A stretch of 45,194 nucleotides of DNA from an uncultured Pseudomonadota bacterium (GTDB taxonomy: Bacteria > UBA10199 > GCA-002796325 > CAYWXY01), in assembly GCA_964462555.1 (NCBI GenBank), contig CAYWXY010000004.1:1-45194 (forward strand), written 5' to 3'. The notes beneath the pieces are model-generated. The model searched no databases and had not been told where the DNA came from. It worked only from the letters and a program-made list of their open reading frames with translations. The first letter of the stretch is position 1; each line of letters starts with the position of its first letter. Shown piece after piece: positions 2,358 to 41,686 of this stretch. The position numbers and the translations under genes were made by a program.

Positions 2358-2404
2358 AATTAACCTCAGTACGTTGGTGCCTCTGTTCTTCAGCACCTCG
2401 GTAT

Positions 2405-3961: not shown

Positions 3962-3967
3962 AAAGAA

Positions 3968-5230: not shown

Positions 5231-5246
5231 CAAACCTCCCGGGATA

Positions 5247-16477: not shown

Positions 16478-16665
16478 AGATTGTAGATGTTCATTGAACC
16501 GAAGTGATTGTGTGTGGAGGGAAGGCAGTGAGAACCTGCCACGGACCCGCCACTGTAAAGGAATGATTGCCGCGTCGTAAGTCACTGTCCTGGGGGATGG
16601 GAAGGCAAGGCGCAGCGATCGACAACCTGAGTCAGGAAACCTTACACTCAATCTCATAGGTAGCC
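16478..16665 (+). promoter_or_regulatory. Cobalamin (B12) riboswitch
   Basis: Conserved core GGAGGGAAGGCAGTGAGAACCTGCCACGGACCCGCCACTGTAAAGG (GGGAA..GGTGAGAA..CC...CCCGCCACTG) and a B12-box-like GAGTCAGGAAACCT at 16629-16642. Lies immediately 5' of a TonB-dependent receptor gene. Confidence 0.8.
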
Positions 16666-16685
16666 ACTCTTCGTGGAGAGAGAGT

Positions 16686-18686: not shown

Positions 18687-18692
18687 TTATGA

Positions 18693-18804
18693 AAATCTCA
18701 AATAACAAACTACAAATTACAATCAAATCCCAAATTACAATTTCAAAATTGTTTTTTTGGGCATTGTGATTTGTTTGTGATTTGTAATTTGAACATTGGA
18801 ATTT
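18693..18804. repeat. Family-H long hairpin repeat (CAAATTACAA-type), copy 1
   Basis: A G-free 5' arm (aaatctcaaataacaaactacaaattacaatcaaatcccaaattacaa) faces a C-poor 3' arm (tttgggcattgtgatttgtttgtgatttgtaatttgaacattggaattt). Homologous copies at 23166-23290 and 44032-44156. Confidence 0.7.
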
Positions 18805-18820
18805 ATCTAAGGAGGTTATC

Positions 18821-21289
18821 ATGACAAAGAAGCTGATCTTCATCTTAATGGCGATCATCATCCCCTTAACCACGGGGTGTGGTGGAGGCATGTTCACGAC
18901 CGACAACACGCCCGAAGGCGACGACATTGACGGTTCATACACAACGCCGTGGGGAAATGTCACGATCACAAAAAATGCCTTTATCTTTGGTAGTGACTAC
19001 CCGGCCGACATTGTTATTCCTGATGTTGACGGAATGCGGAGCACCGCCTTTGTTGTCAGCTTCATGTCGCCAAGTGGCGTCTTGGCCATTGACCTGGAGA
19101 CCAGCCCGCTTCAACTCTCCCAGAGTTTTGCTGGCGTCATTTCACCCAGCGGTACCGGCTTCCCGGGAAATCTATATATTATGAGTACGACGCGTGCATT
19201 CTTGCTGACCTCGTCGCATGTGATCGACTTCAACCCAACGACCGGCAATGTCAATACGACGGTTGAACTCCTGGGCGAACTCGACCTCGGCGCTTATCAT
19301 CCGATCTCTGGAAGTTTTGATGTCGATGGCGACGGCTCGGAGGAGGATGCTATCCAAACGGTCTCAATGAGCTATCCATCCGATCTCGCCGTTCAGGGTG
19401 ATAAACTTTTTATCACAATGTCGAACTTGATCAGCCCTATTCTTCCCGCAATTGCCGGACCCGGAACGGTTCGCGTTTTCCAAATCAATTCATCCAACCC
19501 ATACCTAACGGCGACCACGTCACCGATCATCACGTCCGATTTCAATCCGACTGGCGTCACACCACTTCCCGATGGAACAGTGGCCATTACCAATAGCGGT
19601 GTGTCGGACATTTTTGATGCCGTCGCCCACCCGATCACAAACTCGAGTATCGATATCATTGACCCTTCGACAAATACCATTACCGCTAATATTTCGCTCG
19701 GCGCGGCATCACTCTCGTTCAAAAGGCTTGCCGTTACATCCGATGGTTCGACGGCCTATGTCGGTAGTGCCTCATATGGTGAACTCTATGCCGTCGACCT
19801 CGAGAACCTAACGGTTCTCTATTCACACCAATCGCCAATCACGGTCACTGGAAACGACGCCGGAAGCGACTATTTTTCAGCAGTCGCCCTCAGTTATGAT
19901 GATTGGTATCTTTTTGCGGCAAGTTTTGATAACAGCGCCATCTATCCGGTCGATGCTAAGGCAACACCACCTGACGTTTTACCACTGGCATTCCCGAATC
20001 CCTTTACACTTGGATTTCCAAAGGGTGTGACGGCAGAAAATCCGACCGGCGTTAATACCGGCATTGGCGATATCGCCATTCGTCCCGGCATTCCAGGTGT
20101 CGACTATGATGGACCTGATATTTTTGCGATTACCGGGAACCCCGGAACACTCGTCACGATCAATACGCATGGCACAGAAGAAGGAAGTGCCCTCCAGATC
20201 AAGACGATGGAAATTGAACCGAGTGTTATCGAGGTAAACAGTATCGACGACCCGCTTCAACTCTCTCTAAAAATTGAATTTGGTGACGGAACGATTGTCG
20301 ACAATATTCACGACACGTTTACGAACCCATTTAGTGGCTATCCGACTCAGGTCAAATGGAAGTCGAGCAATCCTTCTGTTGCCACCATCAATCTTTCGGG
20401 GGCATTGATGCCGAAAGGGCTTGGCTCAACGACAATCTCAGCATCGATTGGACAACAGAGCGCCGAAGCCTCGCTCAATATCAATACATTCTCACCCAGT
20501 TCAAACAATCCACCGCCGGATGATGATCCAGAAGATCCCGAGGAACCTGTTGATGACCCTGAAGACCCGGAGGATCCCCAAATCTTCTATATCCCATATG
20601 TCCCAATAATTCACGTCTATATCGATCCCGATATTCTCGAGATCTTGATGAACCTCTATGGAAACCAGGATGATCCGGACGAGATTGAAATTTTGACCGA
20701 GGCACCTCCTGGAACGGACCCTTTTGCCGATGAAGTCACCGAGTTTAATCCCGGTGACGGCTTTGGTTTTGGAAATGACCAGTTCCCCGATATCGTCCTT
20801 GGATCTCCCGAGGGAAATAGCTCGGGGGGCGGGGGCATGGATGTCTTGTCTCTCGGCTTTGAGGGTGAAATCATTTTGGAGATGACCGACTTTATGATTG
20901 CGGATGGTGACGGCGTCGATTTTATTGTTTTCGAAAATGCCTTTTTTGCCGGCGGCAATCCAAACAATCCCTTTTCGGAACCTGCGATTGTGAGTGTCAG
21001 CGATGACGGCAACGACTTTGTTGCGTTTGATTGTTCGTGTAACACGGCCGACAAACCATTATACCCAGGTTGCGCGGGGACACTGCCAACATATGCCAGC
21101 TCCACCAATGGCATTGATGCGACAGATCCAGCTGTTGCCGGTGGCAACGCTTTTGATTTGGCCGACGTTGGCCTGGAGAGTGCTCGTTTTGTAATGATTA
21201 CGGATTGCGGTGTTAGTGGCAACTATAGCCCCACAGCCGGATTTGACCTCGACGCCATATCGGTGGTAAATGGAGCTTTAGTTGACTAG
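18821..21289 (+). CDS. Large lipoprotein: beta-propeller-like repeats + Big_2 Ig-like domain + acidic Pro/Asp linker + C-terminal globular domain; function unknown
   Basis: Lipobox PLTTGC after a signal peptide. Repeated strand-turn motifs are typical of YVTN/YncE-type propellers (LAVTSDGSTAYVGS.YGELYAVDL, IDIIDPSTNTITANISLG). Big_2-like VKWKSSNPSVATINLSGALMPKGLGSTTISA. Linker PPPDDDPEDPEEPVDDPEDPEDP. The C-terminal domain ends GFDLDAISVVNG. AAGGAGG SD. Confidence 0.8.
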   Translation: MTKKLIFILMAIIIPLTTGCGGGMFTTDNTPEGDDIDGSYTTPWGNVTITKNAFIFGSDYPADIVIPDVDGMRSTAFVVSFMSPSGVLAIDLETSPLQLSQSFAGVISPSGTGFPGNLYIMSTTRAFLLTSSHVIDFNPTTGNVNTTVELLGELDLGAYHPISGSFDVDGDGSEEDAIQTVSMSYPSDLAVQGDKLFITMSNLISPILPAIAGPGTVRVFQINSSNPYLTATTSPIITSDFNPTGVTPLPDGTVAITNSGVSDIFDAVAHPITNSSIDIIDPSTNTITANISLGAASLSFKRLAVTSDGSTAYVGSASYGELYAVDLENLTVLYSHQSPITVTGNDAGSDYFSAVALSYDDWYLFAASFDNSAIYPVDAKATPPDVLPLAFPNPFTLGFPKGVTAENPTGVNTGIGDIAIRPGIPGVDYDGPDIFAITGNPGTLVTINTHGTEEGSALQIKTMEIEPSVIEVNSIDDPLQLSLKIEFGDGTIVDNIHDTFTNPFSGYPTQVKWKSSNPSVATINLSGALMPKGLGSTTISASIGQQSAEASLNINTFSPSSNNPPPDDDPEDPEEPVDDPEDPEDPQIFYIPYVPIIHVYIDPDILEILMNLYGNQDDPDEIEILTEAPPGTDPFADEVTEFNPGDGFGFGNDQFPDIVLGSPEGNSSGGGGMDVLSLGFEGEIILEMTDFMIADGDGVDFIVFENAFFAGGNPNNPFSEPAIVSVSDDGNDFVAFDCSCNTADKPLYPGCAGTLPTYASSTNGIDATDPAVAGGNAFDLADVGLESARFVMITDCGVSGNYSPTAGFDLDAISVVNGALVD

Positions 21290-21331
21290 TTACTAGTGGG
21301 GAAGTTTTCAGTTATTAGTAGGGAATTAATA

Positions 21332-22171
21332 ATGAGACAACTCAATTACATTTTGTTTGTATTAATCCTGTTCTTTCCGGTCATATCCTCAACTTCCGAA
21401 CTTCCCCACTTCCCCACTTCCCCACTTCCAAAGCGAATTATTTCGCTCAAACCAAACATCACCGAACTTCTTTTCGAGATTGGAGCAGGAGATCAGGTGG
21501 TTGGTGTCACCACATGGTGCGACAAACCGGAGGCCGCAAAAAAACTGCCAAAGGTCGCCGACTACATTAAACCCAATGTCGAAATGATCATGGCCTTAAA
21601 GCCTGATCTTGTCGTTACTTCTACGGAAAACAGCATCAAGACACCGATCGATGTCATAGAAAAATTGGGCGTGCCGGTCTTGCTTCTTCCGTTTCAGAGC
21701 ATTGACGATCTTGTCGCGTCAACGAAGAAACTCGGTGATGCAACGGGACACGGCAAGGAGGCAACAGACTTAATTCGTAATATCAATGACATCACAGCGA
21801 ATAAAACAGCAAATGACCGCAAAACATTGATTATCGTTGGCAAGCGCCCACTTATCGCGGCGGGTCCTAAGACATTCTTAAGTCAGCTCATCCATCTGTC
21901 GGGCGGAAAGAATATTATCGAGAGCAAGATTCCCTACCCCCATGTTAATATGGAACTGGTTCTCGCAAGCAATCCCGACGTTATCATCGACCTCTCGATG
22001 GGGAGTGAAGATGGATCAAAAAACTCACTCAATAGATGGAAACAATATCCGATCACGGCATCGAAGAAAGACCAAATTTATACGCTAAACATATCGGATT
22101 TTCGAATCGGACCGGGACTCATTAAACAGATAGCAACATTAAAAAAGATCCTTGGAGAGAATGACAACTAA
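21332..22171 (+). CDS. btuF: Periplasmic cobalamin/siderophore-type ABC substrate-binding protein
   Basis: KRIISLKPNITELLFEIGAGDQVVGVT.WCD.P......PKV......N.E.I.ALKPDLV is a BtuF/FecB-type motif. I chose the ATG at 21332 (signal peptide MRQLNYILFVLILFFPVISS) over the GTG at 21296. Confidence 0.8.
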   Translation: MRQLNYILFVLILFFPVISSTSELPHFPTSPLPKRIISLKPNITELLFEIGAGDQVVGVTTWCDKPEAAKKLPKVADYIKPNVEMIMALKPDLVVTSTENSIKTPIDVIEKLGVPVLLLPFQSIDDLVASTKKLGDATGHGKEATDLIRNINDITANKTANDRKTLIIVGKRPLIAAGPKTFLSQLIHLSGGKNIIESKIPYPHVNMELVLASNPDVIIDLSMGSEDGSKNSLNRWKQYPITASKKDQIYTLNISDFRIGPGLIKQIATLKKILGENDN

Positions 22172-23160
22172 TGGCGCATTTGACTCGGAAAAAATATTGG
22201 ACGATCAATGGGATCTGCTTTCTCTTCTTGGTTGTCGTTTGTCTCGTCACGCTCAACATCGGCCCCGAATCGGCCACACTCTTTTCTGGAACCGGCGACT
22301 CACTCGGTCATCATATTATTTTTCTGACGCGCCTGCCGCGCATCCTTCTCGGTCTCTTAGTCGGAATGGCGCTCGCCTCATCCGGGACCGCGTTTCAGTC
22401 GCTCCTTAGAAATCCTCTGGCTGATCCTTATATATTAGGTGTTTCCGGTGGTGCCGCACTCGGCAGCGTGATTGGCGTCAGCCTGGGCCTCCCCTTCCTG
22501 CTCGTCTCGGGCATCGCCTTCGCCTCAGCCTTTTTATCGATGCTTCTCATCTATTGGATCGCGGAATCGAAGGGACGCCTTCCCGCGCATACACTTTTAC
22601 TTACCGGCGTCATTTTCAACGCCTTTGCCTTTGCACTCATCATGTTGATCCATTCGCTGGTCACAATGGAGCAGGCCCACGAGATTCTCTTTCTCCTGAT
22701 TGGGAGTCTGGAACTTTACTCCTATTCAACAATCGCCGTTATTGCCGTTGCTGTGTTGACCGGTTTCATTTTGTTAAATCTATTTTCAAACAAACTCAAC
22801 CTGATGGCGATGGGGGATCGAACGGCCTTTGATCTTGGGATCAACATTGAACGCTTCCGACGTCTGACATTTTTTTCGGCATCACTGATGATCGGCGCCG
22901 TTGTGTCGGTGAGCGGCCTGATCGGCTTTGTAGGAATCTTCATCCCACACATGCTTCGAATGATTTTAGGACCCGATCATCGACTACTCGTACCCACGGC
23001 GGGACTCGTCGGCGGGGCTTTTCTGATCATCGCCGACACCATTGCACGAACATTACTATCAAGTGGCGCTTATCAAACAGAGCTTCCCGTCGGCGTCATT
23101 ACGGCACTGATTGGCGGACCATTTTTTGTATATATATTGAAGAGGCAACTGAAGACATAG
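22171..23160 (+). CDS. btuC: FecCD/BtuC-family ABC permease
   Basis: 329 aa, about 9-10 TM segments, RLPRILLGLLVGMALA..G..FQ...RNPLADPYILGVSGGA motif. TAATG overlap with the btuF stop. Confidence 0.85.
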   Translation: MAHLTRKKYWTINGICFLFLVVVCLVTLNIGPESATLFSGTGDSLGHHIIFLTRLPRILLGLLVGMALASSGTAFQSLLRNPLADPYILGVSGGAALGSVIGVSLGLPFLLVSGIAFASAFLSMLLIYWIAESKGRLPAHTLLLTGVIFNAFAFALIMLIHSLVTMEQAHEILFLLIGSLELYSYSTIAVIAVAVLTGFILLNLFSNKLNLMAMGDRTAFDLGINIERFRRLTFFSASLMIGAVVSVSGLIGFVGIFIPHMLRMILGPDHRLLVPTAGLVGGAFLIIADTIARTLLSSGAYQTELPVGVITALIGGPFFVYILKRQLKT

Positions 23161-23165
23161 GAGGC

Positions 23166-23290
23166 AAACCACAAATTACAAGCAACAAATTACAAACAAT
23201 ATACAATGACCAAAATCACAATTAACAAACCCTATTGTTTGGGTCATTGCGATTTGGAATTTGTTTGTGATTTGGAATTTGTGCATTGAA
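23166..23290. repeat. Family-H long hairpin repeat, copy 2 (inside the operon, between btuC and btuD)
   Basis: cacaaattacaagcaacaaattacaaacaatatacaatgaccaaaa ... tttgggtcattgcgatttggaatttgtttgtgatttggaatttgtg. The arms are imperfectly complementary. The 3' arm contains a 17-nt direct duplication (gatttggaatttgt twice). Confidence 0.7.
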
Positions 23291-23294
23291 ATTT

Positions 23295-24077
23295 ATGATT
23301 ACAATCAAAAATATATCCTTTTCTTATGGGGTTGAAACGATCATTCGGGACCTCTCCCTTGGCGTGGAGAAGGGTTCGTGGGTCGGCCTGATTGGGCCGA
23401 ATGGTGCGGGAAAGACAACGCTTTTACAGTTGATTAGTGGGGCACTTACCCCCTCCTCCGGACAAATCACAATCGATCAACACGATATTCATGCATATTC
23501 GCGCCGCGAAATGGCGAAGAAAATTGCAGTCGTTCCACAGGGCGCCTCTTTTGCATTCTCTTTCTCAACGCTCGAGATCGTTTTGATGGGGCGCGCACCC
23601 TATCTCAAACATTTTGGTTTCGAGACACCAAACGACCTCGAGGCTGCGAAGCGTGCGATGGAGCTGACCGACACGTGGCAGTTTCGAGACCGACCCATTG
23701 ATCAACTCTCGGGTGGCGAACGTCAACGCGTCTTGATTGCGCGCGCACTCACCCAAGAGCCGGAGATTCTCCTCCTCGACGAACCAACGACCTTTCTCGA
23801 CATTCGACACCAGGTTGACATCATGGGAATCCTCACCGATCTTAATCGAAGAAGTTCGATCACGATCATCTCGGCGATCCACGATATCAACCTGGCAATC
23901 TCGTATTGCAACACGATCGCCCTCCTTCACGATGGAAAGATCCGGGTCGAAGGCAAACCTGAAAATGTCATCACGTATGCCAACCTAAAAGAGATCTTTG
24001 CGACCGATGTTTATGTTGGCGTTAATGAATTTACCGGAAAACCGTACTATGTCCCGATGCAACGGGATGGAGAATAG
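23295..24077 (+). CDS. btuD: ABC transporter ATP-binding protein (BtuD/FepC type)
   Basis: Walker A GPNGAGKTT, signature LSGGERQR, Walker B LLLDEP. I chose the ATG at 23295 (MITIKNISFSYG). Confidence 0.85.
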   Translation: MITIKNISFSYGVETIIRDLSLGVEKGSWVGLIGPNGAGKTTLLQLISGALTPSSGQITIDQHDIHAYSRREMAKKIAVVPQGASFAFSFSTLEIVLMGRAPYLKHFGFETPNDLEAAKRAMELTDTWQFRDRPIDQLSGGERQRVLIARALTQEPEILLLDEPTTFLDIRHQVDIMGILTDLNRRSSITIISAIHDINLAISYCNTIALLHDGKIRVEGKPENVITYANLKEIFATDVYVGVNEFTGKPYYVPMQRDGE

Positions 24078-24659
24078 ATGCGATTTAGAATATCGACAGC
24101 CTGGGTTACCTCGTTTCTTTTTCATGCGGCGTTGATCGGACTCATCGTCTGGGTGAGCGTCAATACACCGGAACGCGCGGCGGGATCCGAGGATTACATT
24201 GTGGCCGTTGATATTTTGCAGGAAATGCCTGATGCAACTTCGGGGGTTCAAAAGGAAAGCATACCCGAACCGGAGAAAAAGGGAGAACGTCCCACCCGGC
24301 AAGAAATGACAAAAAGAGAGCGCTCGAAGGATGGAGGCAAGGCAAAGGGCTCGCTTCAGGCCACAACACCACTGCGAAGCGTCGGCGGTGGTGGCTCGAA
24401 TCAGATACTCACAAAGATCAAGGCCAAGATCGAATCTTCCAAGCGCTACCCTCGAATCGCCCTCAAGAAGAAGCTCGAGGGCCGACCGACCGTCCTTTTT
24501 GAGATCAATCCGGATGGCTCGATTCGTTACGTCCAGATCGCGCGAAGTTCTGGAGAAACCGTCTTGGATAATGCTGCGCTTGAAACAGTCCGGCGCGCCG
24601 CCCCACTCCCCAATTATCCCAAGCCGATCCAGCTCGCGATCCGCTACGAACTTCGATGA
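24078..24659 (+). CDS. tonB: TonB-family energy transducer
   Basis: N-terminal TM anchor (FLFHAALIGLIVWVSV), a charged linker and a TonB C-terminal domain (YPRIALKKKLEGRPTVLFEINPDGSI..V.I.RSSG...LD.AALE.VRRA.PLP). The ATG directly follows the btuD TAG. Confidence 0.8.
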   Translation: MRFRISTAWVTSFLFHAALIGLIVWVSVNTPERAAGSEDYIVAVDILQEMPDATSGVQKESIPEPEKKGERPTRQEMTKRERSKDGGKAKGSLQATTPLRSVGGGGSNQILTKIKAKIESSKRYPRIALKKKLEGRPTVLFEINPDGSIRYVQIARSSGETVLDNAALETVRRAAPLPNYPKPIQLAIRYELR

Positions 24660-35464: not shown

Positions 35465-35480
35465 TGGCATGTTTCTTGCT
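35465..35480 (+). promoter_or_regulatory. Sigma-54 (-24/-12) promoter TGGCATgtttcTTGCT
   Basis: Matches TGGCAC-N5-TTGCW at 15 of 16 defined or spaced positions. Lies 36 nt upstream of the ATG at 35517. An IHF-like site AATCAAccgtTTA at 35427-35439 lies upstream. Confidence 0.65.
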
Positions 35481-35516
35481 CTATTTACCCTCGTGACCTT
35501 CTGAAGGGGGTAAGAA

Positions 35517-35933
35517 ATGAAGAAACTCATACTCAACATTATAATGATAACATTAGTGCTCTTCCTTGCAGCTCCAGCCAGCGCCATCCAGGAAGTCGAC
35601 CTACCGCAGGAAAAGGGTCAGGGCCCTGTCGTGGTGCCAGACACACCCGACACATACGTTATCTACGATGGATATGCCAATTCGAGTGATGTGACGATTG
35701 TGGGCGGTGTCATGGGTGTCATGTATTATTTCTGCAAACAACATAGCCCTGAGTTCTGCTCCGATCAGGAGGGTGTTCTTCTCGTGAGCGGCGGCGATAC
35801 CGGGAAGATCCCTGGGATCCTTAAACTTCTCGACGAACTGATGGGGGGTAATACGAAGGTTGTCGTCAAACTCTCCAAAACCAAAAACTTCTCAGGCGTC
35901 CCCATCATCATAGATGCCCAGATACTGAATTAG
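35517..35933 (+). CDS. Small secreted protein, unknown function
   Basis: 138 aa, signal peptide (LVLFLAAPASA/IQE), two Cys (FCKQHSPEFC), GGGGG SD, sigma-54 promoter upstream. Confidence 0.6.
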   Translation: MKKLILNIIMITLVLFLAAPASAIQEVDLPQEKGQGPVVVPDTPDTYVIYDGYANSSDVTIVGGVMGVMYYFCKQHSPEFCSDQEGVLLVSGGDTGKIPGILKLLDELMGGNTKVVVKLSKTKNFSGVPIIIDAQILN

Positions 35934-36132: not shown

Positions 36133-38154
36133 ATGCTCTACGTCAATGTGGCGATCGACGTGCCACTTCATAAGACATTTACATATACCGTTCCCGAAGA
36201 GATGTCCGACCGCATCGCGCCTGGAATGCGCGTCGTCGTCCCCTTTCGAAAACGGGAAAGAATGGGTTACGTTATTGAAATTGATGTGACGCCACCCAAT
36301 ATCGCTAACCTTAAGGAGGTTAGCGACCTTCCCGATGAAGAACCTATTTTGTCGGAAAGACTCCTGTCGCTCCTTCAATGGATGGCCGGATACTATGCCG
36401 CGCCGATTGGCGAGGTCTGTGCCGCGGCTGTTCCCAACATTTTGAATCGCGCGGATGAGATCGGGAAGAAGCGCCAGACGCCAAAGGAGATAACGAATCT
36501 CGAATCATTCCAGAAGGAACGAACCGAAAGCCTGACCGAATCTCAAGAAACTATCTGGAAATCGTGGGAGACGATTCTCAAAAAAGAGACATTTGACGTC
36601 GCCCTTCTCCATGGCATTACTGGCAGCGGGAAAACCGAGCTCTATCTCAAACTGATGGAGAAGGTTGTATCCGATGGAAAAACGGCGATCCTCCTGGTTC
36701 CTGAAATTTCGCTCACGCCGCAACTCGCCGGGCGCGTCATGGGCCATTTTCCTGAGCGCGTGGCCATCTATCACAGTGGCATTACCGATGTGCAACGCCT
36801 TCATCAATGGGAGGCGATTCAAAGAGGCGATATTGATATTGTGGTCGGCACACGGTCGGCAATGTTTGCACCGCTCAAAAATCTCGGCGCTATCATTATA
36901 GATGAAGAACATGACCATTCATACAAGCAAGAAGAGTCCCCGCGGTATCATGCTAGAGACAGCGCGATCATGCGCGCAAAGCTTGAGGGGGCCTTTGTCG
37001 TTCTTGGCTCGGCAACGCCTTCTATTGAATCACTCGCCAACGCTAAGAGTGACAAGTACCACTATTATCACCTACAAGAACGTTATGGCGACGCCGTTCT
37101 TCCGGACGTTCGCGTGATCGATATGCGAAAGGAACCGCGTTCGGAACTCCTAAACCCACATCTGTCGATTGAGCTGATTTCGGCGATTGACAAACGTCTG
37201 AAGAAGAACCAACAGACACTCCTCTTTCTGAATCGTAGGGGCTACGCCAACTTCTTCCTCTGTCAAGATTGTGGCCATACGCCTGAGTGCCCAAATTGTA
37301 AGATCACGCTGACGTACCATAAAAAGGGACGACAACTTACCTGCCACTATTGCGACTATTCGATCCCCGGATTTGATTCCTGTCCAAAATGTCATGGCAT
37401 CGATATCCTTTTGATTGGCAGCGGCACTGAACTGATCGAGGAGGCCATTGGGAAGCGATTTCCATCGGCGCATATTGCACGACTAGATCGGGATACCGTC
37501 ACGTCGGAAAAGAAGCGCCGCGAATTACTTTCCGATATGCATCGTGGAAAAATCGACATCCTGATCGGAACACAAATGATCACAAAGGGACATGACTTCC
37601 CAAACGTTACACTGGTTGGGATCATTTCAGCTGACCAGTCGATTCACTTTCCTGATTTTCGTTCATCGGAGCGGACGTTCCAATTGATCACACAGGTCTC
37701 TGGGCGTGCTGGACGCGCCAAGGATCCAGGCGAAGTCATTATTCAGACATATGATCCGGAACATATATCCATTGCGACGGCATCTAAGAATGAACTTGAT
37801 CGCTACATCGAGTCAGAACTCAATGTTCGAAAAGAGCTTTCGTATCCCCCCTTTTCACGCATTGCCAATATTCGGATCGTTGGTAATCGTCCAGCGGACG
37901 TCAAAAATACATCCGAACAATTGATGAAGGGGCTTAATCAATTGGCGGGTGGCAATCATGGTGTCCGCCTTCTTGGGCCGGCGCCCGCGCCTATTGCGAT
38001 GATGCGAGGGAAGACACGTTGGCAGATTTTAATCAAATCTCCCTCGGCCGGCGAACTCGCTCGCATTCTTAACCAACTGATGAACCATCTCGAAGAAAAT
38101 CCTATCCGTGGCATCCAGGTCTCCATCGACGTTGATCCCGTTTCAGTAATGTAA
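36133..38154 (+). CDS. priA: Primosomal protein N' (replication restart helicase)
   Basis: N-terminal 3'-DNA-binding domain (VAIDVPL...FTY), Walker A GITGSGKTE, DEEH box IIIDEEHD, Cys-rich Zn insert (CQDCGH..ECPNC...LTCHYC....CPKC). Confidence 0.9.
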   Translation: MLYVNVAIDVPLHKTFTYTVPEEMSDRIAPGMRVVVPFRKRERMGYVIEIDVTPPNIANLKEVSDLPDEEPILSERLLSLLQWMAGYYAAPIGEVCAAAVPNILNRADEIGKKRQTPKEITNLESFQKERTESLTESQETIWKSWETILKKETFDVALLHGITGSGKTELYLKLMEKVVSDGKTAILLVPEISLTPQLAGRVMGHFPERVAIYHSGITDVQRLHQWEAIQRGDIDIVVGTRSAMFAPLKNLGAIIIDEEHDHSYKQEESPRYHARDSAIMRAKLEGAFVVLGSATPSIESLANAKSDKYHYYHLQERYGDAVLPDVRVIDMRKEPRSELLNPHLSIELISAIDKRLKKNQQTLLFLNRRGYANFFLCQDCGHTPECPNCKITLTYHKKGRQLTCHYCDYSIPGFDSCPKCHGIDILLIGSGTELIEEAIGKRFPSAHIARLDRDTVTSEKKRRELLSDMHRGKIDILIGTQMITKGHDFPNVTLVGIISADQSIHFPDFRSSERTFQLITQVSGRAGRAKDPGEVIIQTYDPEHISIATASKNELDRYIESELNVRKELSYPPFSRIANIRIVGNRPADVKNTSEQLMKGLNQLAGGNHGVRLLGPAPAPIAMMRGKTRWQILIKSPSAGELARILNQLMNHLEENPIRGIQVSIDVDPVSVM

Positions 38155-38170
38155 CTCTACCATCGCAACA

Positions 38171-38275
38171 CTGTTCAAATGTTCAAAAACTAGTTTGCAA
38201 AAAATATAAAACCATTTCTCTGTTCAAAATGTTCAAAAAATAATTGAGCTGATTTATTTTTGAACATCTTGAACG
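38171..38275 (+). promoter_or_regulatory. Three copies of a 19-21-nt motif GTTCAA(N1-2)ATGTTCAAAAA (two direct, one inverted); possible operator or hairpin
   Basis: ctgttcaaatgttcaaaaac (38171-38190), ctgttcaaaatgttcaaaaaa (38220-38240), and inverted tttttgaacatcttgaacg (38257-38275). Copies 2 and 3 can form a stem of about 20 bp. A weak promoter candidate TTCAAA-N17-TATAAA (38182-38210) overlaps copy 1. Confidence 0.4.
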
Positions 38276-38332
38276 TTTTCTCTCGTCTCACAAATAGATT
38301 CCACAACTTTCGTCCACTCATCTCCGAAAAAT

Positions 38333-38364
38333 AAGTGTGCCTAATTTTTGAGGCACACTTTTTT
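38333..38364 (+). terminator. Intrinsic terminator-like hairpin in the leader of the RyR-like gene
   Basis: 10-bp stem aagtgtgcct/aggcacactt, 8-nt loop, then TTTTTT. Ends 29 nt before the ATG at 38393, with the SD AGGAGAG in between. Confidence 0.6.
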
Positions 38365-38392: not shown

Positions 38393-39385
38393 ATGAGTGG
38401 TAAAACAGGTAAACCAATACGTGTTAAAACAATAATCGCAAGACCGGTAGAGATTACCAAAGGGGCAACCATCAGTCTTGGTCAGATGGTTCGCAAGGCA
38501 GGCGAGATTAAACTTCCGATTTCTTTTGTTCGCACCTTGTCACCGACGGGCGTCACAACACAACAATCCGCATCTCGATTTTCCGTTAGCGTTACGACCT
38601 GGCAAACAATGAGTGTCGGAAAAACAATATCTGGCCAGCAACCCATTGAGTGGGCAGGACGCACGGCTGAAGGTTCTAGCCTCTTACAGAGAATGATTCG
38701 TGATTCAAAGGGTGAAGGAACTCAGGCACTCTTTGCTGGAAGAAATGCAAATCCAGGTCGTCCCACTGGTCAGAAATCAAAAACAAGTGGTGGAATCCTT
38801 GCTGCCGGCGGCAAAGATAGCGGTTCTCCACTTAGTGCAAATGAAACAGCTCTCATCTCAGTTGTCGAAACTGGACGTACGAGCTACGCGACAGAACTCC
38901 ACAACGAGTGGCGAAATGGCCGACAGATTACTTCCGGTCAGGCGGTCGATGGCCTCCCCGCACGTGAGCCGCGATGGAAAGAGGTTCCGGCCGATGATCC
39001 CAGTCTTGCGACGGCAGGCGCTTTCAAAAAGACCGAAGATGGAAAACACTATGTAGACATTGCCAACCTCGACTTCGGACACCTCCCTGTAAAATTTCAG
39101 TATGAAAATGGTGAGGCCGCAAAGGGTGCGATGGATATCATTGAACGTGCCATTGTCGAACAGGCCGGTGCAGAGGTTATCGTCATCAACCTTGAGACCG
39201 CCAGTGCTGAGGTACACGAACAATGGTTAGAGCGCAACGGCAGCTGGGCACCCGCCGAACAGAACAAACCATACGGCGAGCTATCCGAAGGTGAAAAGCA
39301 GAAGGATCGCGATATCGTCGTTGGCGCTGTGAAGCACCTTAATGAGGCAATGAAAGATAGCGCTGTTCAGTTCGTCATTAAATAG
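38393..39385 (+). CDS. Hypothetical protein with RyR-like (ryanodine-receptor repeat) C-terminal region
   Basis: 330 aa. The C-terminal half carries LHNEWRNGR...EPRWKEV...YVDIANLDFGHLPVKFQYENGEAAKGA and VHEQWLERNGSWAP..QNKPYGELSEGEKQKDRDIV, resembling the bacterial RyR domain pattern (H..W.......PY..L.E.EK..DR). The N-terminal half is Gly/Ser/Thr-rich and looks disordered. Confidence 0.6.
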   Translation: MSGKTGKPIRVKTIIARPVEITKGATISLGQMVRKAGEIKLPISFVRTLSPTGVTTQQSASRFSVSVTTWQTMSVGKTISGQQPIEWAGRTAEGSSLLQRMIRDSKGEGTQALFAGRNANPGRPTGQKSKTSGGILAAGGKDSGSPLSANETALISVVETGRTSYATELHNEWRNGRQITSGQAVDGLPAREPRWKEVPADDPSLATAGAFKKTEDGKHYVDIANLDFGHLPVKFQYENGEAAKGAMDIIERAIVEQAGAEVIVINLETASAEVHEQWLERNGSWAPAEQNKPYGELSEGEKQKDRDIVVGAVKHLNEAMKDSAVQFVIK

Positions 39386-39406: not shown

Positions 39407-39441
39407 ATAAAAAAGGGGTGCCATGTCGGCACCCCTTTTTA
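39407..39441. terminator. Bidirectional intrinsic terminator
   Basis: A-run, ggggtgcc-atgtc-ggcacccc, T-run, between convergent genes. Nearly identical stem to the terminator at 40551-40586. Confidence 0.8.
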
Positions 39442-39481: not shown

Positions 39482-40252
39482 TTAATTAACCTGCATCCTT
39501 GCGCAGTCTTCGCGATTTTCCAGATCTTCGCACATCTCAATCTCTCTATCGGTTTTTGCCTTTTCGAAGCAGGCATCAATACTGTCACAAGGTAATCTTT
39601 CTATATCAACCAGACCCCTCAGGTAAAGATCAACAACGATCGATCGATATGACTCAACGCTTCTTCCTAGATCCCTCACTCCTTCTTCTTTAGTTTCAGC
39701 TTTGTGCTTTTCGGCATCTTCTTCAGTTTCCGAAATCTCTTCTTCAAGGGCTTCTTTTTCTTTTGATATTTCTTGTTGAATGAGCCCCACCTTGTTTCGA
39801 ACATTCTCGCGATAATTGGCAATTTTCCGCTGAATGGCTTCAGCCTTCTCACGCACATCATTTCGATAGTCTGCACGATTTTTTACCTCATAAATATCAG
39901 TCCCCTTCTCTACTTCTTTCTCATCCATCCCATATTGATAAAGACTGGCGCCAACTCCAGAAAACGTAATTTTTCGAGCATTTCTCATGATCCCACGCTT
40001 TTGCATCTCCTCCATCATCGTTTCTTGCATTTTCTCTCGATCTTTCTGTCTCTTTTTTGTGTTTTCAATTTTTTGCCTTTCCATCATCCTTTGATATTCT
40101 TCCATCAATTCATTGGCCTTTCTCTCAGCTCTCTCATGAGTTTCTATTGAAGCTTCTGAAGCCCCTATCTCTGCGGCAGCTGATTTGATATGAATTGAAA
40201 AACTGGATAGAACGATTCCAAGAATGAGCCCACAAACAGTAAACTTCTTCAT
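39482..40252 (-). CDS. Secreted K/E-rich coiled-coil protein with one C-terminal Cys-rich module
   Basis: Signal peptide MKKFTVCGLILGIVLSSFSIHIKSAAA, long charged helical region, C-terminal LPCDSIDACFEKAKTDREIEMCEDLENREDC. GGGGAGG SD. Sigma-54 promoter upstream. Confidence 0.7.
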   Translation of the reverse strand: MKKFTVCGLILGIVLSSFSIHIKSAAAEIGASEASIETHERAERKANELMEEYQRMMERQKIENTKKRQKDREKMQETMMEEMQKRGIMRNARKITFSGVGASLYQYGMDEKEVEKGTDIYEVKNRADYRNDVREKAEAIQRKIANYRENVRNKVGLIQQEISKEKEALEEEISETEEDAEKHKAETKEEGVRDLGRSVESYRSIVVDLYLRGLVDIERLPCDSIDACFEKAKTDREIEMCEDLENREDCARMQVN

Positions 40253-40302
40253 TCAGACCTCCCCTGGTCTTCCCCTTCGATACCCTTGAGACTCCAGGAA
40301 GA

Positions 40303-40318
40303 AGCAATATTTGTGCCA
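40303..40318 (-). promoter_or_regulatory. Sigma-54 promoter TGGCACaaataTTGCT (minus strand)
   Basis: The reverse complement of agcaatatttgtgcca is an exact match to TGGCAC-N5-TTGCW. Lies 50 nt upstream of the ATG at 40252. Confidence 0.7.
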
Positions 40319-40550
40319 ATCAATCGCATAAAAAAACACCCTGATTTCAATATGTTACTAAGTGTGTCGTCGTTTTAATGGGACAATTCTGGTCGAATTG
40401 AGGGGTCAGTTCACCCCAATGGCGGATCTTGGCAATCTATATACCATCCAAAGTGGCCATCTTTTCGCGAAACAGACTAACGACTTGTGATTAGAAGTTT
40501 CTCACCTAGTGAACAGCCTACCAGATAAGCTTTTACCAGGCACCATATGT

Positions 40551-40586
40551 AAAAGAAAGGGGTGCCGATCTGGCACCCCTTTTAAA
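40551..40586 (-). terminator. Intrinsic terminator of the 40609-41469 gene
   Basis: ggggtgcc-gatct-ggcacccc. On the minus strand it is followed by TTTCTTTT. The stem is identical to the 39415-39435 terminator. Confidence 0.75.
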
Positions 40587-40608
40587 TCATTCGATTTGAT
40601 TTTCTCTA

Positions 40609-41469
40609 TTATTCAGAACAGGTCAGATCGACCATTCCACATTTCCTAAGCCTTAGATCGTTGTCACCGGCCTTATCAACACAAATATCGTAGCAATCAC
40701 AGGGGACATCTTCTGGATCTAGAAAACCGTGAAAGAGATCTTTCACATCTGCCAAACACTCAATTTCTTTTTTCTTCTTCTCAATCCGATCGGCAATCGT
40801 GGAAATTCCATTTCCGGATCCTATCAAACCTGGGCGATCAACGAAATCTGAGAACTGAATACCGCTAAAGCTCGCCCCTAGCACTTCAGCCCTATCGTCA
40901 TCATCGGAATCGTCAACAAAACGAGAACCGTCCTCGCTTGGGTTTCCGTAAAATTTATCATTGAGGCTACCGTATTTCGTCTTCGTTTTTGTATTTTCTG
41001 CATCGCTGCTCCGCATACACTCATCCTTAAATTCATTACAGAGTTCGTCTTCGTGGCGTGTTTCAGCTACATCGAAACAGGTATCGAGGCAACCACAGGG
41101 AACCTCGTCCGCATCAAAATCGTCATAAAAATAATCTTCTATAATTACTGAGCAGGCGCGTTTGAATGATTTAATCTTAAGCTTCAACAGTGGCGTTTTG
41201 TCTGCCGCATCCTTCATCAAATTATCTACTAGTATCTTCTTTTGTTTCTTGGCAGATTTCCTTTTGGCCTTCGCTTTCTGTTTTTCTCTCGCCTCTTCCT
41301 GTTTTTCAGCAGCTGCTCGGCTCACGACATTCGTTACCGTCGATGCCACACTCACATCAGATATCGTCTTCATCAGCTCCTCTAACCAATCAGAATCATC
41401 GGCGCGAACTGAAACGCTGGTCATTAACAGGGCTACTGCAACACTAAATACCACCAAGATCTTCTTCAT
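40609..41469 (-). CDS. Secreted charged protein with two copies of the Cys-rich module
   Basis: Signal peptide MKKILVVFSVAVALLMTSVSVRA, a K-rich helix, then VPCGCLDTCFDVAETRHEDELCNEFKDEC and VPCDCYDICVDKAGDNDLRLRKCGMVDLTC. GGGAGG SD. Sigma-54 promoter upstream. Confidence 0.7.
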   Translation of the reverse strand: MKKILVVFSVAVALLMTSVSVRADDSDWLEELMKTISDVSVASTVTNVVSRAAAEKQEEAREKQKAKAKRKSAKKQKKILVDNLMKDAADKTPLLKLKIKSFKRACSVIIEDYFYDDFDADEVPCGCLDTCFDVAETRHEDELCNEFKDECMRSSDAENTKTKTKYGSLNDKFYGNPSEDGSRFVDDSDDDDRAEVLGASFSGIQFSDFVDRPGLIGSGNGISTIADRIEKKKKEIECLADVKDLFHGFLDPEDVPCDCYDICVDKAGDNDLRLRKCGMVDLTCSE

Positions 41470-41529
41470 TTTTACCTCCCACAGAGTTATATCTCTTCTT
41501 CGAGATCGTTTTCGTATGGAGCGTTACTA

Positions 41530-41545
41530 AGCAATAACCGTGCCA
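41530..41545 (-). promoter_or_regulatory. Sigma-54 promoter TGGCACggttaTTGCT (minus strand)
   Basis: The reverse complement of agcaataaccgtgcca matches the extended consensus TGGCACG-N4-TTGCW exactly. Lies 60 nt upstream of the ATG at 41469. Confidence 0.75.
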
Positions 41546-41686
41546 AGAAATAGGCATAAATCTGTGTAATATTTCCGGTGGTTTACAAAATGACCCATGG
41601 GGCAGCCTGGGGACTATACTGGTCAAATCACGGGGTTACCTCCCCATCTATTGACCTCGCGCCGGCCAAATGCTATACGAGGAAAC

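What the first reader, a model, noticed from the sequence alone, without database searches (positions are those of the whole stretch)
39482..41469. Adjacent paralogous secreted proteins built around a roughly 50-aa Cys-rich module I do not recognise (PC-x-C-x-D-x-C ... C-x6/7-C)
The module occurs three times:
- LPCDSIDACFEKAKTDREIEMCEDLENREDC (C-terminus of the 256-aa protein);
- VPCGCLDTCFDVAETRHEDELCNEFKDEC (286-aa protein);
- VPCDCYDICVDKAGDNDLRLRKCGMVDLTC (286-aa protein).

Each copy is preceded by an acidic/aromatic stretch (D.Y/F....D). In the 286-aa protein each copy also has an extra upstream Cys. Both proteins have signal peptides and long Lys/Glu-rich helical regions.

Each gene has its own sigma-54 promoter and a nearly identical terminator stem (ggggtgcc/ggcacccc at 39415-39435 and 40559-40579), which indicates a tandem duplication of a whole expression unit. 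By eye this block looks more AT-rich than its surroundings; I did not compute this.
Basis: seen in the sequence. Interest (0 to 1): 0.7.

Follow-up and report, generated by a model that had tools for sequence, protein, structure and literature searches.

The report
New secreted cysteine-stapled three-helix module
Two neighbouring genes of an uncultured marine bacterium encode exported, acidic proteins built around a ~54-residue three-helix unit that is probably held together by up to three disulfide bridges. This unit was found in only four proteins among about 15 billion and matches no domain or structure library, so it is a real orphan family whose job is still unknown.

Summary
Two minus-strand genes (39482-40252, 256 aa; 40609-41469, 286 aa) encode signal-peptide proteins that share a Cys-rich module. 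Each has an exact sigma-54 -24/-12 element, a Shine-Dalgarno site and a GGGGTGCC/GGCACCCC terminator. The block is the lowest-GC part of the window (GC 42.5% vs 47.9%).

The module is longer than described, about 54 aa: C1-x18-(P)C2-x-C3-x3-C4-x11-13-C5-x6/8-C6. It has no Pfam, NCBIfam, PHROG, PADLOC, PDB-sequence or Foldseek match. An exhaustive profile search of 1.84 billion representatives found only an ortholog (P0002) and one distant three-module protein (P0004). Both are signal-peptide proteins behind exact sigma-54 promoters.

AlphaFold gives a confident three-helix unit (pLDDT 90). Natural variants lose cysteines in pairs (C1+C3, C4+C5), which implies disulfides C1-C3, C4-C5 and C2-C6.

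The upstream regions of the two genes align beyond the promoter, so a cassette duplication is supported. The coding similarity is confined to the signal peptide and the module.

Function is unknown. My best guess is enhancer-activated envelope proteins carrying disulfide-stapled acidic binding modules. This is a very rare orphan family of moderate interest.

The parts
40609..41469 (-). geneB: 286-aa exported protein with two 6-Cys modules
   Evidence: ORF. One ortholog, P0002, at 61-69% identity in the same def/priA position. dN/dS is 0.15, which indicates a real gene under purifying selection.
41401..41469 (-). geneB Sec-type signal peptide (residues 1-23, predicted cleavage VRA/DD)
   Evidence: Read directly from the sequence: a KK n-region, a hydrophobic core and V-x-A at -3/-1. 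The same layout occurs in P0002. No predictor was run.
41011..41172 (-). Module B1 (residues 100-153, KSFKRAC...DECMR), 6 Cys
   Evidence: Alignments A2 and A4. HMM domain score 82.8 bits. The AlphaFold model has pLDDT 90 and three helices.
40612..40773 (-). Module B2 (residues 233-286, KKEIEC...DLTCSE), 6 Cys
   Evidence: Alignment A4. HMM domain score 77.0 bits. In the full-length model pLDDT is 66-77 here and below 50 in the linkers.
41530..41545 (-). geneB sigma-54 -24/-12 element TGGCACGGTTATTGCT, 60 nt before the ATG
   Evidence: Exact consensus match. The 16-mer is identical in ortholog locus L001. The promoter-to-ATG stretch is 75/81 identical, while 4-fold sites are 41-52% identical.
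41610..41627 (-). Conserved upstream element TTTGACCAGTATAGTCCC, a candidate enhancer (bEBP) site 65-82 nt upstream of the -24 element
   Evidence: It is shared with geneA and L001 at the same spacing. That it binds an activator is an inference.
41475..41480 (-). geneB ribosome-binding site GGGAGG
   Evidence: Read from the sequence.
40556..40582 (-). geneB intrinsic terminator (GGGGTGCC-AGATC-GGCACCCC followed by a T run)
40484..40545 (-). TACCWGGTA-like repeats and a conserved hairpin 3' of geneB, also about 190 nt upstream of geneA's promoter
   Evidence: The element aligns with the DNA just 3' of the P0002 and P0004 genes. All 10 predicted pairs are kept in all 3 sequences, several through G-U changes. 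Its function is unknown.
39482..40252 (-). geneA: 256-aa exported protein with a charged helical region and one 4-Cys module
   Evidence: ORF. An identical protein occurs on 4 other contigs. There is no other full-length homolog in 5.8 billion clusters.
40172..40252 (-). geneA signal peptide (residues 1-27, predicted cleavage AAA/EI)
   Evidence: Read from the sequence.
39497..39667 (-). Module A (residues 196-252), 4 Cys: C1 and C3 are replaced by Tyr/Arg-region and Ser
   Evidence: BLASTP E 3e-5 and 4e-5. HMM 70.2 bits. Leave-one-out E 1.9e-6. Alignment A4.
40303..40318 (-). geneA sigma-54 -24/-12 element TGGCACAAATATTGCT, 50 nt before the ATG
   Evidence: Exact match. The same 16-mer precedes the P0004 gene in L002.
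40380..40397 (-). geneA copy of the upstream element TTCGACCAGAATTGTCCC, 62-79 nt upstream of the -24 element
   Evidence: Upstream-only similarity: A vs B z 4.8, A vs L001 z 7.2.
40258..40264 (-). geneA ribosome-binding site GGGGAGG
   Evidence: Read from the sequence.
39410..39440 (.). geneA terminator (GGGGTGCC-GACAT-GGCACCCC), bidirectional and shared with the convergent ORF 38393-39385
   Evidence: One search finds it on both strands. One search gives -23.1 kcal/mol, z -6.9.

Best explanation
**What it is.** These are two members of a very small, previously undescribed family of Sec-exported, strongly acidic envelope proteins. The host is an uncultured marine diderm bacterium.

**The folded unit.**
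- It is a ~54-residue three-helix module with the pattern C1-x18-(P)C2-x-C3-x3-C4-x11-13-C5-x6/8-C6.
- After export it is probably locked by up to three disulfides: C1-C3 ties helix 1 to helix 2, and C4-C5 and C2-C6 staple the helix 2/helix 3 hairpin.
- Modules are strung on charged, largely unstructured or flexible linkers. There is one module in the 256-aa protein, two in the 286-aa protein and three in P0004.

**The expression unit.**
- Each gene is its own monocistronic unit: a conserved element at about -100, an exact sigma-54 promoter, an SD site, the CDS and an intrinsic terminator.
- Transcription should therefore be off unless an enhancer-binding activator, encoded elsewhere, is switched on.
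- The two window genes share the -100 element and would be co-induced.
- The pair arose by duplication of the cassette, followed by heavy divergence or remodelling of the coding part outside the module.

**Inferred function (low confidence).** The modules are stable, acidic binding knobs for a cationic ligand or a partner protein. They would be deployed in the periplasm or at the cell surface as a conditionally induced envelope response.

**Shown versus inferred.**
- Shown: gene structure, module homology and rarity, promoter/terminator anatomy, purifying selection, a confident helical model.
- Inferred: disulfide map, activator dependence, localisation beyond Sec export, function.
For: **Real genes.**
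- geneB vs its ortholog has dN/dS 0.15. The neighbouring priA, def and fmt have 0.03-0.05.
- SD sites, signal peptides and terminators are present.

**Module homology.**
- BLASTP E 3e-5 and 4e-5.
- Leave-one-out profiles give E 1.9e-6 for geneA and 6e-12 for P0004.
- The A2 profile against 1.84e9 proteins finds only P0002 (1e-48), geneA (4e-19) and P0004 (8e-10).
- geneB vs P0004 BLASTP gives E 2e-9 over module-linker-module.

**Fold.**
- AlphaFold on the 8-copy alignment gives pLDDT 90.1 and helices 2-15, 26-35 and 39-53.
- In the full-length model only the two modules rise above pLDDT 57-77; the rest is below 50.

**Disulfide map.**
- Five copies have 6 Cys. The geneA copy lacks exactly C1 and C3. 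P0004 copy 3 lacks exactly C4 and C5.
- Mature proteins have 4, 12 and 12 Cys.
- C4/C5 (32+45) and C2/C6 (26+52) lie in antiparallel register on helices 2 and 3 (plus positions in A4).

**Diderm host.** A TonB-dependent receptor and TonB are encoded in the window.

**Sigma-54 control.**
- Exact TGGCAC-N5-TTGCT lies 50-60 nt before the ATG in 4 of 4 family genes.
- No sigma-70-like site lies upstream of either gene.
- The promoter-to-ATG stretch of geneB is 75/81 identical to L001, while 4-fold sites are 41-52% identical.

**Shared upstream element and duplication.**

**Acidity.** Modules carry net charge -5 to -10. Mature proteins have pI 4.4-5.0.
Against: - No experiment or coordinate-level check of Cys-Cys distances was possible.
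- The co-loss argument rests on two variant copies.
- The window carries lysine-fermentation genes, and the samples are from oxygen-deficient water. Many anaerobes lack a Dsb system (own knowledge), so the cysteines might stay reduced.
- Neither rpoN nor an enhancer-binding protein is in the window, and the -100 element is not recognisably present upstream of P0004.
- There is no conserved gene neighbour to anchor a function. P0004 sits in an unrelated context.
- Outside the module geneA and geneB are not alignable.
- geneA has markedly lower GC3 and is absent from L001, so simple in-situ tandem duplication is not proven.
- The linker of geneB is well conserved between orthologs, so function may not reside only in the modules.
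Confidence: 0.55

Rival explanations
1. The cysteines are metal ligands, not disulfides. The module would be a periplasmic thiolate metal-binding or buffering unit for Zn, Cu or Cd, induced through a sigma-54 metal-responsive two-component system in the manner of E. coli ZraP.
For: - The clustered C-x-C-x3-C motif plus acidic residues resembles metal sites (own knowledge of CxC/CxxxC motifs).
- The organism is probably anaerobic, from oxygen-deficient water, where oxidative folding may be weak.
- Sigma-54 control of a periplasmic helical protein has a precedent in zraP (own knowledge).
Against: - Cysteines are lost strictly in pairs that match helix-helix contacts (C1+C3, C4+C5), while the rest of the module is kept.
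- Cys counts in the mature proteins are even.
- His is nearly absent from the window proteins, at 2 per protein.
- There is no match to any metal-binding family.
Confidence: 0.15
2. The proteins are precursors. The linkers are pro-regions, and the ~50-aa disulfide-rich helical modules are released by proteolysis as diffusible peptides (signals or bacteriocin-like toxins). This would be analogous to multi-copy peptide precursors and to small helical disulfide-stapled secreted peptides such as E. coli STb or ciliate pheromones.
For: - There are one to three module copies per protein, separated by low-confidence linkers.
- Basic stretches lie just before the modules: KIKSFKRA, EKKKKEIE, and LKIKS..GKIAKP in P0004.
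- The family evolves fast compared with its neighbours: 61-69% vs 91% protein identity.
- The phyletic range is very narrow.
Against: - No protease, exporter or immunity gene is adjacent in either context.
- The geneB linker and N-terminus are well conserved between orthologs, unlike disposable pro-regions.
- The modules are strongly acidic, whereas most bacteriocins are cationic (own knowledge).
Confidence: 0.1
3. geneA is not an in-situ tandem duplicate of geneB. Instead the 2.35-kb segment 38155-40510 (geneA plus the 330-aa ORF) was acquired as a block from a related genome that uses the same regulator, and was inserted between geneB's 3' element and priA.
For: - L001 has geneB directly next to priA, with neither geneA nor the 330-aa ORF.
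- geneA has the lowest GC3 of 37 genes (0.366), and the 330-aa ORF has 0.444 against a mean of 0.518.
- geneA's promoter 16-mer is identical to that of the distant P0004 gene rather than to geneB's.
Against: - No integrase, transposase, tRNA or flanking direct repeats were seen (sequence).
- The upstream element, its spacing, the SD context and the terminator stem all resemble geneB's or L001's.
- A deletion in L001 explains the difference equally well.
Confidence: 0.2
4. The 'module' is a chance resemblance between low-complexity, Cys-containing stretches, or the ORFs are not real genes.
For: - The family is tiny.
- Both proteins are compositionally biased (K/E/D rich), and weak spurious Pfam hits arise from that bias.
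Against: - Significant pairwise and leave-one-out scores.
- E 8e-10 to an independent protein in a 1.84e9-protein search.
- dN/dS 0.15.
- Conserved promoter, SD and terminator.
- A confident fold prediction.
Confidence: 0.02

Closest known systems
CHCH-domain / twin-CX9C proteins of the mitochondrial intermembrane space (Pfam PF06747; e.g. Cox17, Mia40 substrates). Compared from own knowledge.
   Same: A helix-turn-helix hairpin stapled by two roughly parallel disulfides. It folds oxidatively after translocation into an oxidising compartment. It is a small domain.
   Different: - The spacing here is C-x5-C / C-x6(8)-C, not twin CX9C.
- There is an extra N-terminal helix tied on by a third disulfide through a CxC motif.
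- The protein is bacterial and Sec-exported.
- There is no Pfam hit.
- It is not a member.
Helicobacter cysteine-rich proteins (HcpA-E), Sel1-like repeat family (PF08238). Compared from own knowledge.
   Same: Bacterial, signal-peptide-bearing proteins made of repeated alpha/alpha units, each bridged by a disulfide. Copy number is variable, evolution is fast and the phyletic range is narrow.
   Different: - Hcp repeats are contiguous 36-aa SLR units that form a superhelix.
- Here the 54-aa units are isolated by long charged linkers and have three helices and up to three disulfides.
- There is no Sel1 hit.
- It is not a member.
Small secreted three-helix or helical-hairpin disulfide-stapled peptides: Euplotes pheromones (Er-1 etc.; 38-40 aa, 3 helices, 3 disulfides, acidic) and E. 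coli heat-stable enterotoxin b (48 aa, 2 disulfides). Compared from own knowledge.
   Same: Size, all-helical architecture, two to three disulfides and export through a signal peptide. For the pheromones, the acidity is also shared.
   Different: - There is no sequence or Foldseek similarity.
- The modules here are embedded in 230-350-aa proteins, and no processing is shown.
- The Cys pattern and the inferred connectivity differ.
ZraP / CpxP / Spy periplasmic helical stress proteins. zraP is transcribed from a sigma-54 promoter under ZraSR. Compared from own knowledge.
   Same: A small monocistronic gene for an exported, helical periplasmic protein, driven by a sigma-54 promoter with an upstream activator site. 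This is the regulatory logic proposed here.
   Different: - Those proteins have no cysteine staples, carry LTXXQ motifs, and are adjacent to their two-component regulator.
- None of these features is present here.
- There is no Pfam or NCBIfam hit.
- The resemblance is in logic only.
Saposin-like and plant 8-Cys-motif (nsLTP / 2S albumin) helical disulfide-rich domains. Compared from own knowledge.
   Same: All-helical small domains with three to four disulfides. The plant motif also contains a CxC.
   Different: - They are eukaryotic, longer (70-90 aa, 4-5 helices) and have different Cys patterns.
- There is no fold or sequence match.

Membership tests
Any curated protein family (Pfam-A, NCBIfam, PHROGs, PADLOC) | Score above the family's threshold with the family HMM | tested here: not met
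   For whole proteins the best Pfam hits are 16.9-18.5 bits, far below the cut-offs, and lie in K/E-rich regions. For the eight isolated modules the best E is 0.068. NCBIfam gives E >= 0.012 with nothing near a cut-off. PHROGs and PADLOC give nothing.
Any solved structure (PDB), by sequence or fold | A significant HMMER or Foldseek match | tested here: not met
   The profile A4 against PDB sequences gives 0 hits at E<=10. Foldseek against PDB gives a best E of 8.8 and TM 0.42. Foldseek against BFVD gives a best E of 2.8. Foldseek is weak on 54-residue helical queries.
CHCH / twin-CX9C | Two CX9C motifs facing each other in a helix-turn-helix | tested here: not met
   The spacings are C2-x5-C4 and C5-x6/8-C6. 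There is no PF06747 hit.
Sel1-like repeat (Hcp) proteins | Tandem 36-aa SLR units matching PF08238 | tested here: not met
   There is no PF08238 hit. The units are 54 aa and separated by 80-130-aa linkers.
Sigma-54-dependent promoter | GG at -24 and GC at -12 in TGGCAC-N5-TTGCW, correctly placed and oriented upstream of the gene | tested here: met
   Exact matches lie at 40303-40318 and 41530-41545. They are the only two in the window, against about 1.2 expected even when one mismatch is allowed. Exact matches also occur in L001 and L002. The site is conserved against a saturated synonymous background.
Sigma-54-dependent promoter | An upstream activator (bEBP) binding site about 80-150 bp upstream | tested here: inconclusive
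   A conserved 18-mer lies 62-82 nt upstream of the -24 element in geneA, geneB and L001. It has no clear dyad, it is not seen upstream of P0004, and binding is untested.
Sigma-54-dependent promoter | rpoN and a cognate enhancer-binding ATPase encoded in the genome | not testable with these tools
   Only 45 kb of the genome is available. No Sigma54_activat domain appears among the annotated window ORFs.
Sec / SPase I exported protein | An N-terminal n/h/c signal peptide with small residues at -3/-1, no lipobox and no twin-arginine | tested here: met
   By inspection of all four proteins: VRA/DD, VKA/DD, AAA/EI and AFA/QA. No dedicated predictor was available.
Disulfide-bonded exported domain | Cysteines oxidised in defined pairs | not testable with these tools
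   The evidence is indirect: even Cys counts, pairwise co-loss of C1+C3 and of C4+C5, and a helical register compatible with those pairs. Model coordinates could not be inspected.
Tandem gene duplication | Homology of the two units along the promoter, the coding region and the terminator | tested here: inconclusive
   The regulatory DNA, the signal peptide, the C-terminal module and the terminator are similar. About 170 aa of geneA has no counterpart in geneB, and no relic module is present. geneA is absent from L001.

The most novel reading that the evidence does not exclude
The module is a new bacterial fold class of secreted, disulfide-stapled three-helix mini-protein. It would be released from multi-copy precursors as a diffusible signal or antagonistic peptide in anoxic marine water. 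It would be produced only when a dedicated sigma-54 enhancer-binding sensor fires, and each cassette would travel with its own conserved 5' enhancer and 3' RNA hairpin. That would make it a bacterial counterpart of ciliate three-helix pheromones.
Probability: 0.1. Interest if true: 0.7.

Novelty: new variant of a known kind. Interest (0 to 1): 0.4.

Why it matters
If the reading is right, this adds a compact disulfide-stapled helical domain to the small list of bacterial extracytoplasmic mini-domains. It has no relatives in any domain or structure library.

Its disulfide map can be read from natural variants, and it could be useful as a stable scaffold.

The locus is also a clean natural example of a whole sigma-54 expression cassette being duplicated and its cargo remodelled. 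The cassette comprises the enhancer, the promoter, the leader, the module and the terminator.

The biological pay-off is limited for now. The family is confined to one uncultured lineage from oxygen-deficient sea water and has no functional anchor.

Tried and rejected
- **Searches for further loci.**
  - Genome contigs with geneB found none.
  - Metagenome contigs with the geneB/P0002 alignment found none.
  - Metagenome contigs with the 3' hairpin DNA pattern found none.
  - The module alignment was too divergent for the search for related loci.
- **Taxonomic placement through PriA.** The best hits were only 36-53% identical and scattered over many phyla. Only two peptide patterns were scanned, so the lineage stays unidentified.
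- **Is P0004's contig from the same genome?** It occurs in the same sample and has similar GC. The tetranucleotide correlation is 0.856, no better than for an unrelated locus (0.86), against 0.94 within the window. The result is inconclusive.
- **A degenerate, Cys-free relic of a first module in geneA.** This was suggested by a BLASTP E 1.5 segment. The profile gives no hit at all on residues 1-195, so it is rejected.
- **Relationship to the Cys-rich 154-aa two-repeat protein next to P0004.** hhalign gives probability 0.2%, so it is rejected.
- **Rfam families in the UTRs or the 3' element.** Nothing was found at E<0.1.
- **A structured 5' UTR.** The signal is weak: z -1.8 for geneB and 0.08 for geneA.
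- **Phage or defence origin.** There are no PHROG or PADLOC hits.
- **Full-length AlphaFold model of geneB.** Confidence is too low (pLDDT 47) to say anything about the linkers or about module-module packing.
Full report
**1. What is in the sequence**

I call them geneA (39482..40252, 256 aa) and geneB (40609..41469, 286 aa).

Their neighbours are as follows:
- priA lies on one side (36133..38154, +).
- An unannotated 330-aa ORF lies next to it (38393..39385, +) and converges on geneA.
- def lies on the other side, followed by fmt and rpe. Comparison with the ortholog shows that def really starts at 41687.

Other genes in the window are chromosomal housekeeping and transport genes. They include a TonB-dependent receptor and TonB, so the host is a diderm and Sec export delivers proteins at least to the periplasm.

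Both proteins start with a classical Sec/SPase I leader: MKKILVVFSVAVALLMTSVSVRA/DD and MKKFTVCGLILGIVLSSFSIHIKSAAA/EI. I judged these by inspection.

Each gene has:
- a GGGAGG-type ribosome-binding site;
- a strong intrinsic terminator with the same GGGGTGCC/GGCACCCC stem;
- an exact TGGCAC-N5-TTGCT sigma-54 element 50 nt (geneA) or 60 nt (geneB) before the ATG.

These two elements are the only exact matches in the 45-kb window. About 1.2 matches would be expected by chance even with one mismatch allowed. No sigma-70-like site lies upstream of either gene.

The block is modestly but clearly AT-rich:
- GC is 0.425 against 0.479 for the window, and the lowest 1-kb windows of the whole sequence lie here.
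- GC3 is 0.366 for geneA, the lowest of 37 genes and 2.9 sd below the mean. It is 0.436 for geneB.
- The bias is therefore not only a consequence of Lys/Glu codons.

**2. The module is real and a little larger than described**

Statistical support:
- BLASTP between the two proteins aligns only the C-terminal ~50 residues of geneA, to each of the two Cys-rich stretches of geneB (E 3e-5 and 4e-5).
- A profile made only from geneB and its ortholog recovers the geneA copy at E 1.9e-6, and the distant protein P0004 at 6e-12, among 14,829 six-frame ORFs.

Aligned over eight copies, the unit is about 54 residues:
- C1-x18-(P)C2-x-C3-x3-C4-x11-13-C5-x6/8-C6.
- The last spacing is x6 in geneB and x8 in geneA, not x7.
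- Every copy is strongly acidic, with net charge -5 to -10. The mature proteins have pI 4.4-5.0.

**3. How rare it is and who else has it**

The word-indexed search of 5.8 billion protein clusters gave geneB a single relative and geneA none but itself. The relative is P0002 (255 aa). BLASTP gives 61% identity and the codon alignment gives 69%.

An exhaustive HMMER search with the module profile covered 1.84 billion representatives of about 15 billion proteins. It found three proteins:
- P0002 (E 1e-48);
- geneA (E 4e-19);
- P0004 (373 aa, E 8e-10), which carries three copies.

Properties of P0004:
- It aligns with geneB over module-linker-module (E 2e-9).
- By eye it also shares short linker motifs with geneB or P0002 (LKIKS, SIGDQI).
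- It has a signal peptide (…MNAFA/QAE).
- Its gene is preceded by TGGCACAAATATTGCT 57 nt before the ATG. This is the very 16-mer of geneA.

The P0002 gene sits alone between def and priA in a sister genome (L001). It has the same promoter 16-mer as geneB.

All four known family members are therefore signal-peptide proteins behind exact sigma-54 promoters.

On provenance:
- Contigs identical to the window region, and the P0004 contig, come from the same set of metagenomes.
- One of these samples is described in PMC12220078 as marine water column from oxygen-minimum or oxygen-deficient zones.
- I could not place the organism. The PriA-based genome scan gave only 36-53% identical hits across many phyla, and it used just two peptide patterns.

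**4. It matches nothing known**

No significant hit was obtained in any of these:
- Pfam, for whole proteins or for the eight isolated modules;
- NCBIfam;
- PHROGs or PADLOC;
- PDB sequences;
- PDB or BFVD folds by Foldseek, best E 8.8 and 2.8.

Foldseek has little power on a 54-residue helical query. 'No structural neighbour' is therefore weaker evidence than the sequence results.

**5. Structure and the disulfide map**

AlphaFold2 on module B1, using the eight-copy alignment, gives a confident model (mean pLDDT 90.1, pTM 0.68). It has three helices, at residues 2-15, 26-35 and 39-53.

The full-length geneB model is poor (pLDDT 47). Its only better regions are the two modules (57-77). The N-terminal ~100 residues and the 75-residue linker fall below 50. 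The picture is folded knobs on flexible, charged tethers.

The cysteines are distributed as follows:
- C1 lies in helix 1.
- C2, C3 and C4 lie in helix 2.
- C5 and C6 lie in helix 3.

Natural variation is informative:
- Five copies have all six cysteines.
- The geneA copy lacks exactly C1 and C3.
- The third copy of P0004 lacks exactly C4 and C5.
- Mature geneA, geneB and P0002 have 4, 12 and 12 cysteines.

Loss in pairs implies the pairing C1-C3, C4-C5 and, by elimination, C2-C6. The two hairpin pairs are in antiparallel register (positions 32+45 and 26+52).

This is an inference. I could not read model coordinates, and no chemistry was done.

**6. Selection**

Between the window and L001:
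- 4-fold degenerate sites are only 41-52% identical, which is near saturation.
- PriA, Def and Fmt proteins are 86-93% identical, with dN/dS 0.03-0.05.
- geneB has dN/dS 0.15 and a 31-residue length difference in the Lys/Glu-rich region.

geneB is thus a genuine gene under purifying selection, but it evolves four to five times faster than its neighbours.

Its N-terminus, both modules and, unexpectedly, the acidic/Gly-rich linker are well conserved.

The non-coding 163 nt from the upstream element to the ATG are 81% identical. By my count the promoter-to-ATG stretch is 75/81 identical. The regulatory region, including the 5' leader, is therefore under strong constraint.

**7. One cassette, copied**

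The upstream regions of geneA, geneB and the L001 gene align.

Beyond the promoter they share an 18-mer, TTYGRCCAGWATWGTCCC:
- It lies 62-82 nt upstream of the -24 element in all three.
- It occurs nowhere else in the window, even with three mismatches allowed.

Restricted to the DNA upstream of the promoter, local similarity of geneA to geneB has z 4.8, with 1 of 500 shuffles reaching the score. Similarity of geneA to L001 has z 7.2, with 0 of 500.

I read the 18-mer as the likely enhancer for a shared activator. Its position fits that reading, but binding is untested.

There are limits to that conclusion:
- About 170 residues of geneA have no counterpart in geneB, and no relic of a second module is present.
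- geneA and the 330-aa ORF (window 38155 to about 40510) are absent from L001.
- geneA's GC3 is aberrant.

Duplication followed by loss in L001, and later acquisition of the block from a relative, both remain possible.

**8. How it most likely works**

Shown:
- monocistronic sigma-54 cassettes;
- Sec leaders;
- a conserved, confidently helical Cys module;
- purifying selection.

Inferred from established knowledge of sigma-54:
- Closed complexes need an ATP-dependent enhancer-binding protein.
- The genes should therefore be silent until a specific signal activates that protein.
- geneA and geneB should respond together.

Inferred from the Cys pattern:
- Folding is oxidative and takes place after export.
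- It gives rigid, protease-resistant acidic knobs.

The function itself is a guess. I favour a conditionally induced envelope or surface protein whose modules bind a cationic ligand or a partner protein. The nearest regulatory analogy is the sigma-54-dependent periplasmic helical protein ZraP of E. coli (own knowledge).

The rivals are a thiolate metal-binding module, a precursor of released helical peptides, and block acquisition rather than in-situ duplication. They are scored separately in the report sections.

**9. Comparison and verdict**

In construction the module resembles several known things:
- CHCH/twin-CX9C hairpins;
- the disulfide-bridged alpha/alpha repeats of Helicobacter Hcp proteins;
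- small three-helix, three-disulfide secreted peptides such as ciliate pheromones.

It fails the defining sequence features of each of these, and it is not a member of any curated family.

I rate it as a new variant of a known kind, namely exported disulfide-stapled helical mini-domains. It is a real and neatly organised orphan family. Its extreme rarity and the lack of any functional anchor keep the interest moderate (0.4).

Noticed in passing
window 40484-40545 (-); L001 about 2510-2583; L002 about 9742-9786: A conserved non-coding element lies immediately 3' of the family genes in all three lineages, although P0004 sits in an unrelated context. It consists of TACCWGGTA-like repeats (period about 15 nt; 3 in the window, 4 in L001, 2 in L002) that end in a hairpin TTAYCTGG-N11-CYAGGTRR. 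All 10 predicted pairs are kept in all 3 sequences, and the changes are G-U-compatible only on the sense strand. In the window and L001 it follows the intrinsic terminator. In the window it also lies about 190 nt upstream of geneA's promoter. It has no Rfam match, and an exact-pattern scan of metagenome contigs found nothing. Single-sequence folding of the window copy prefers an alternative pairing.
   Followed up: partly
window 35465-35933 (+); L001 5276-5291 (-) and gene 4802-5242: A third sigma-54-type element, TGGCATGTTTCTTGCT, lies 36 nt before the ATG of a 138-aa signal-peptide protein (MKKLILNIIMITLVLFLAAPASA/IQE) with no family hit. The identical 16-mer precedes the orthologous gene in L001. 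It lacks the 18-mer upstream element of geneA and geneB. Small exported proteins behind sigma-54 promoters may be common in this organism.
   Followed up: partly
window 38393-39385 (+): This is a 330-aa orphan ORF convergent with geneA and sharing its bidirectional terminator. It has an SD site and was called as a gene on contig L077. It has no significant family or PDB hit, only a weak RyR-domain-like C-terminus (Pfam E 0.044). Together with geneA it forms the ~2.35-kb stretch that is absent from the sister locus L001.
   Followed up: partly
window 38177-38349: The intergenic region between priA and the 330-aa ORF holds AAATGTTCAAAAA direct repeats (38177, 38227) and an inverted copy. A 10-pair hairpin (38333-38360) lies just before the ORF's SD site. 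This could be an operator or attenuator for that ORF.
   Followed up: no
window 41597-41686: The mechanical ORF for peptide deformylase starts 30 codons too early. The ortholog in L001 starts at MTLLKIF, which puts the real start at 41687. The geneB-def divergent intergenic region is therefore 41470-41686 and contains geneB's promoter and upstream element.
   Followed up: yes
window 41470-41529 (-): geneB's 5' leader is almost invariant between the window and L001: 75/81 identical from the promoter to the ATG, against 41-52% at 4-fold sites. This is more than a promoter alone would need. Its predicted structure is only weakly better than shuffles (z -1.8).
   Followed up: partly
window 16478-24659 (+): A cobalamin riboswitch (71.7 bits) lies directly upstream of a probable B12 uptake cluster: a TonB-dependent receptor, an 822-aa protein with no family, a periplasmic binding protein, a FecCD permease, an ABC ATPase and TonB.
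   Followed up: no
window 1560-5347 (-): Lysine fermentation-type genes are present: a lysine 2,3-aminomutase-like radical SAM enzyme and the D-lysine 5,6-aminomutase alpha and beta (B12-binding) subunits. They point to an anaerobic amino-acid-fermenting lifestyle, consistent with the oxygen-deficient source water.
   Followed up: no
L002 7894-8358 (-): A 154-aa protein without a signal peptide is transcribed divergently from the P0004 gene. It is made of two 4/5-Cys helical-looking repeats (C-x17-C-x5-C-x15-C). It is not related to the module (hhalign probability 0.2%). The same contig also holds two paralogous large orphan proteins and secreted proteins with faint DUF4215 Cys-rich repeat hits.
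   Followed up: partly
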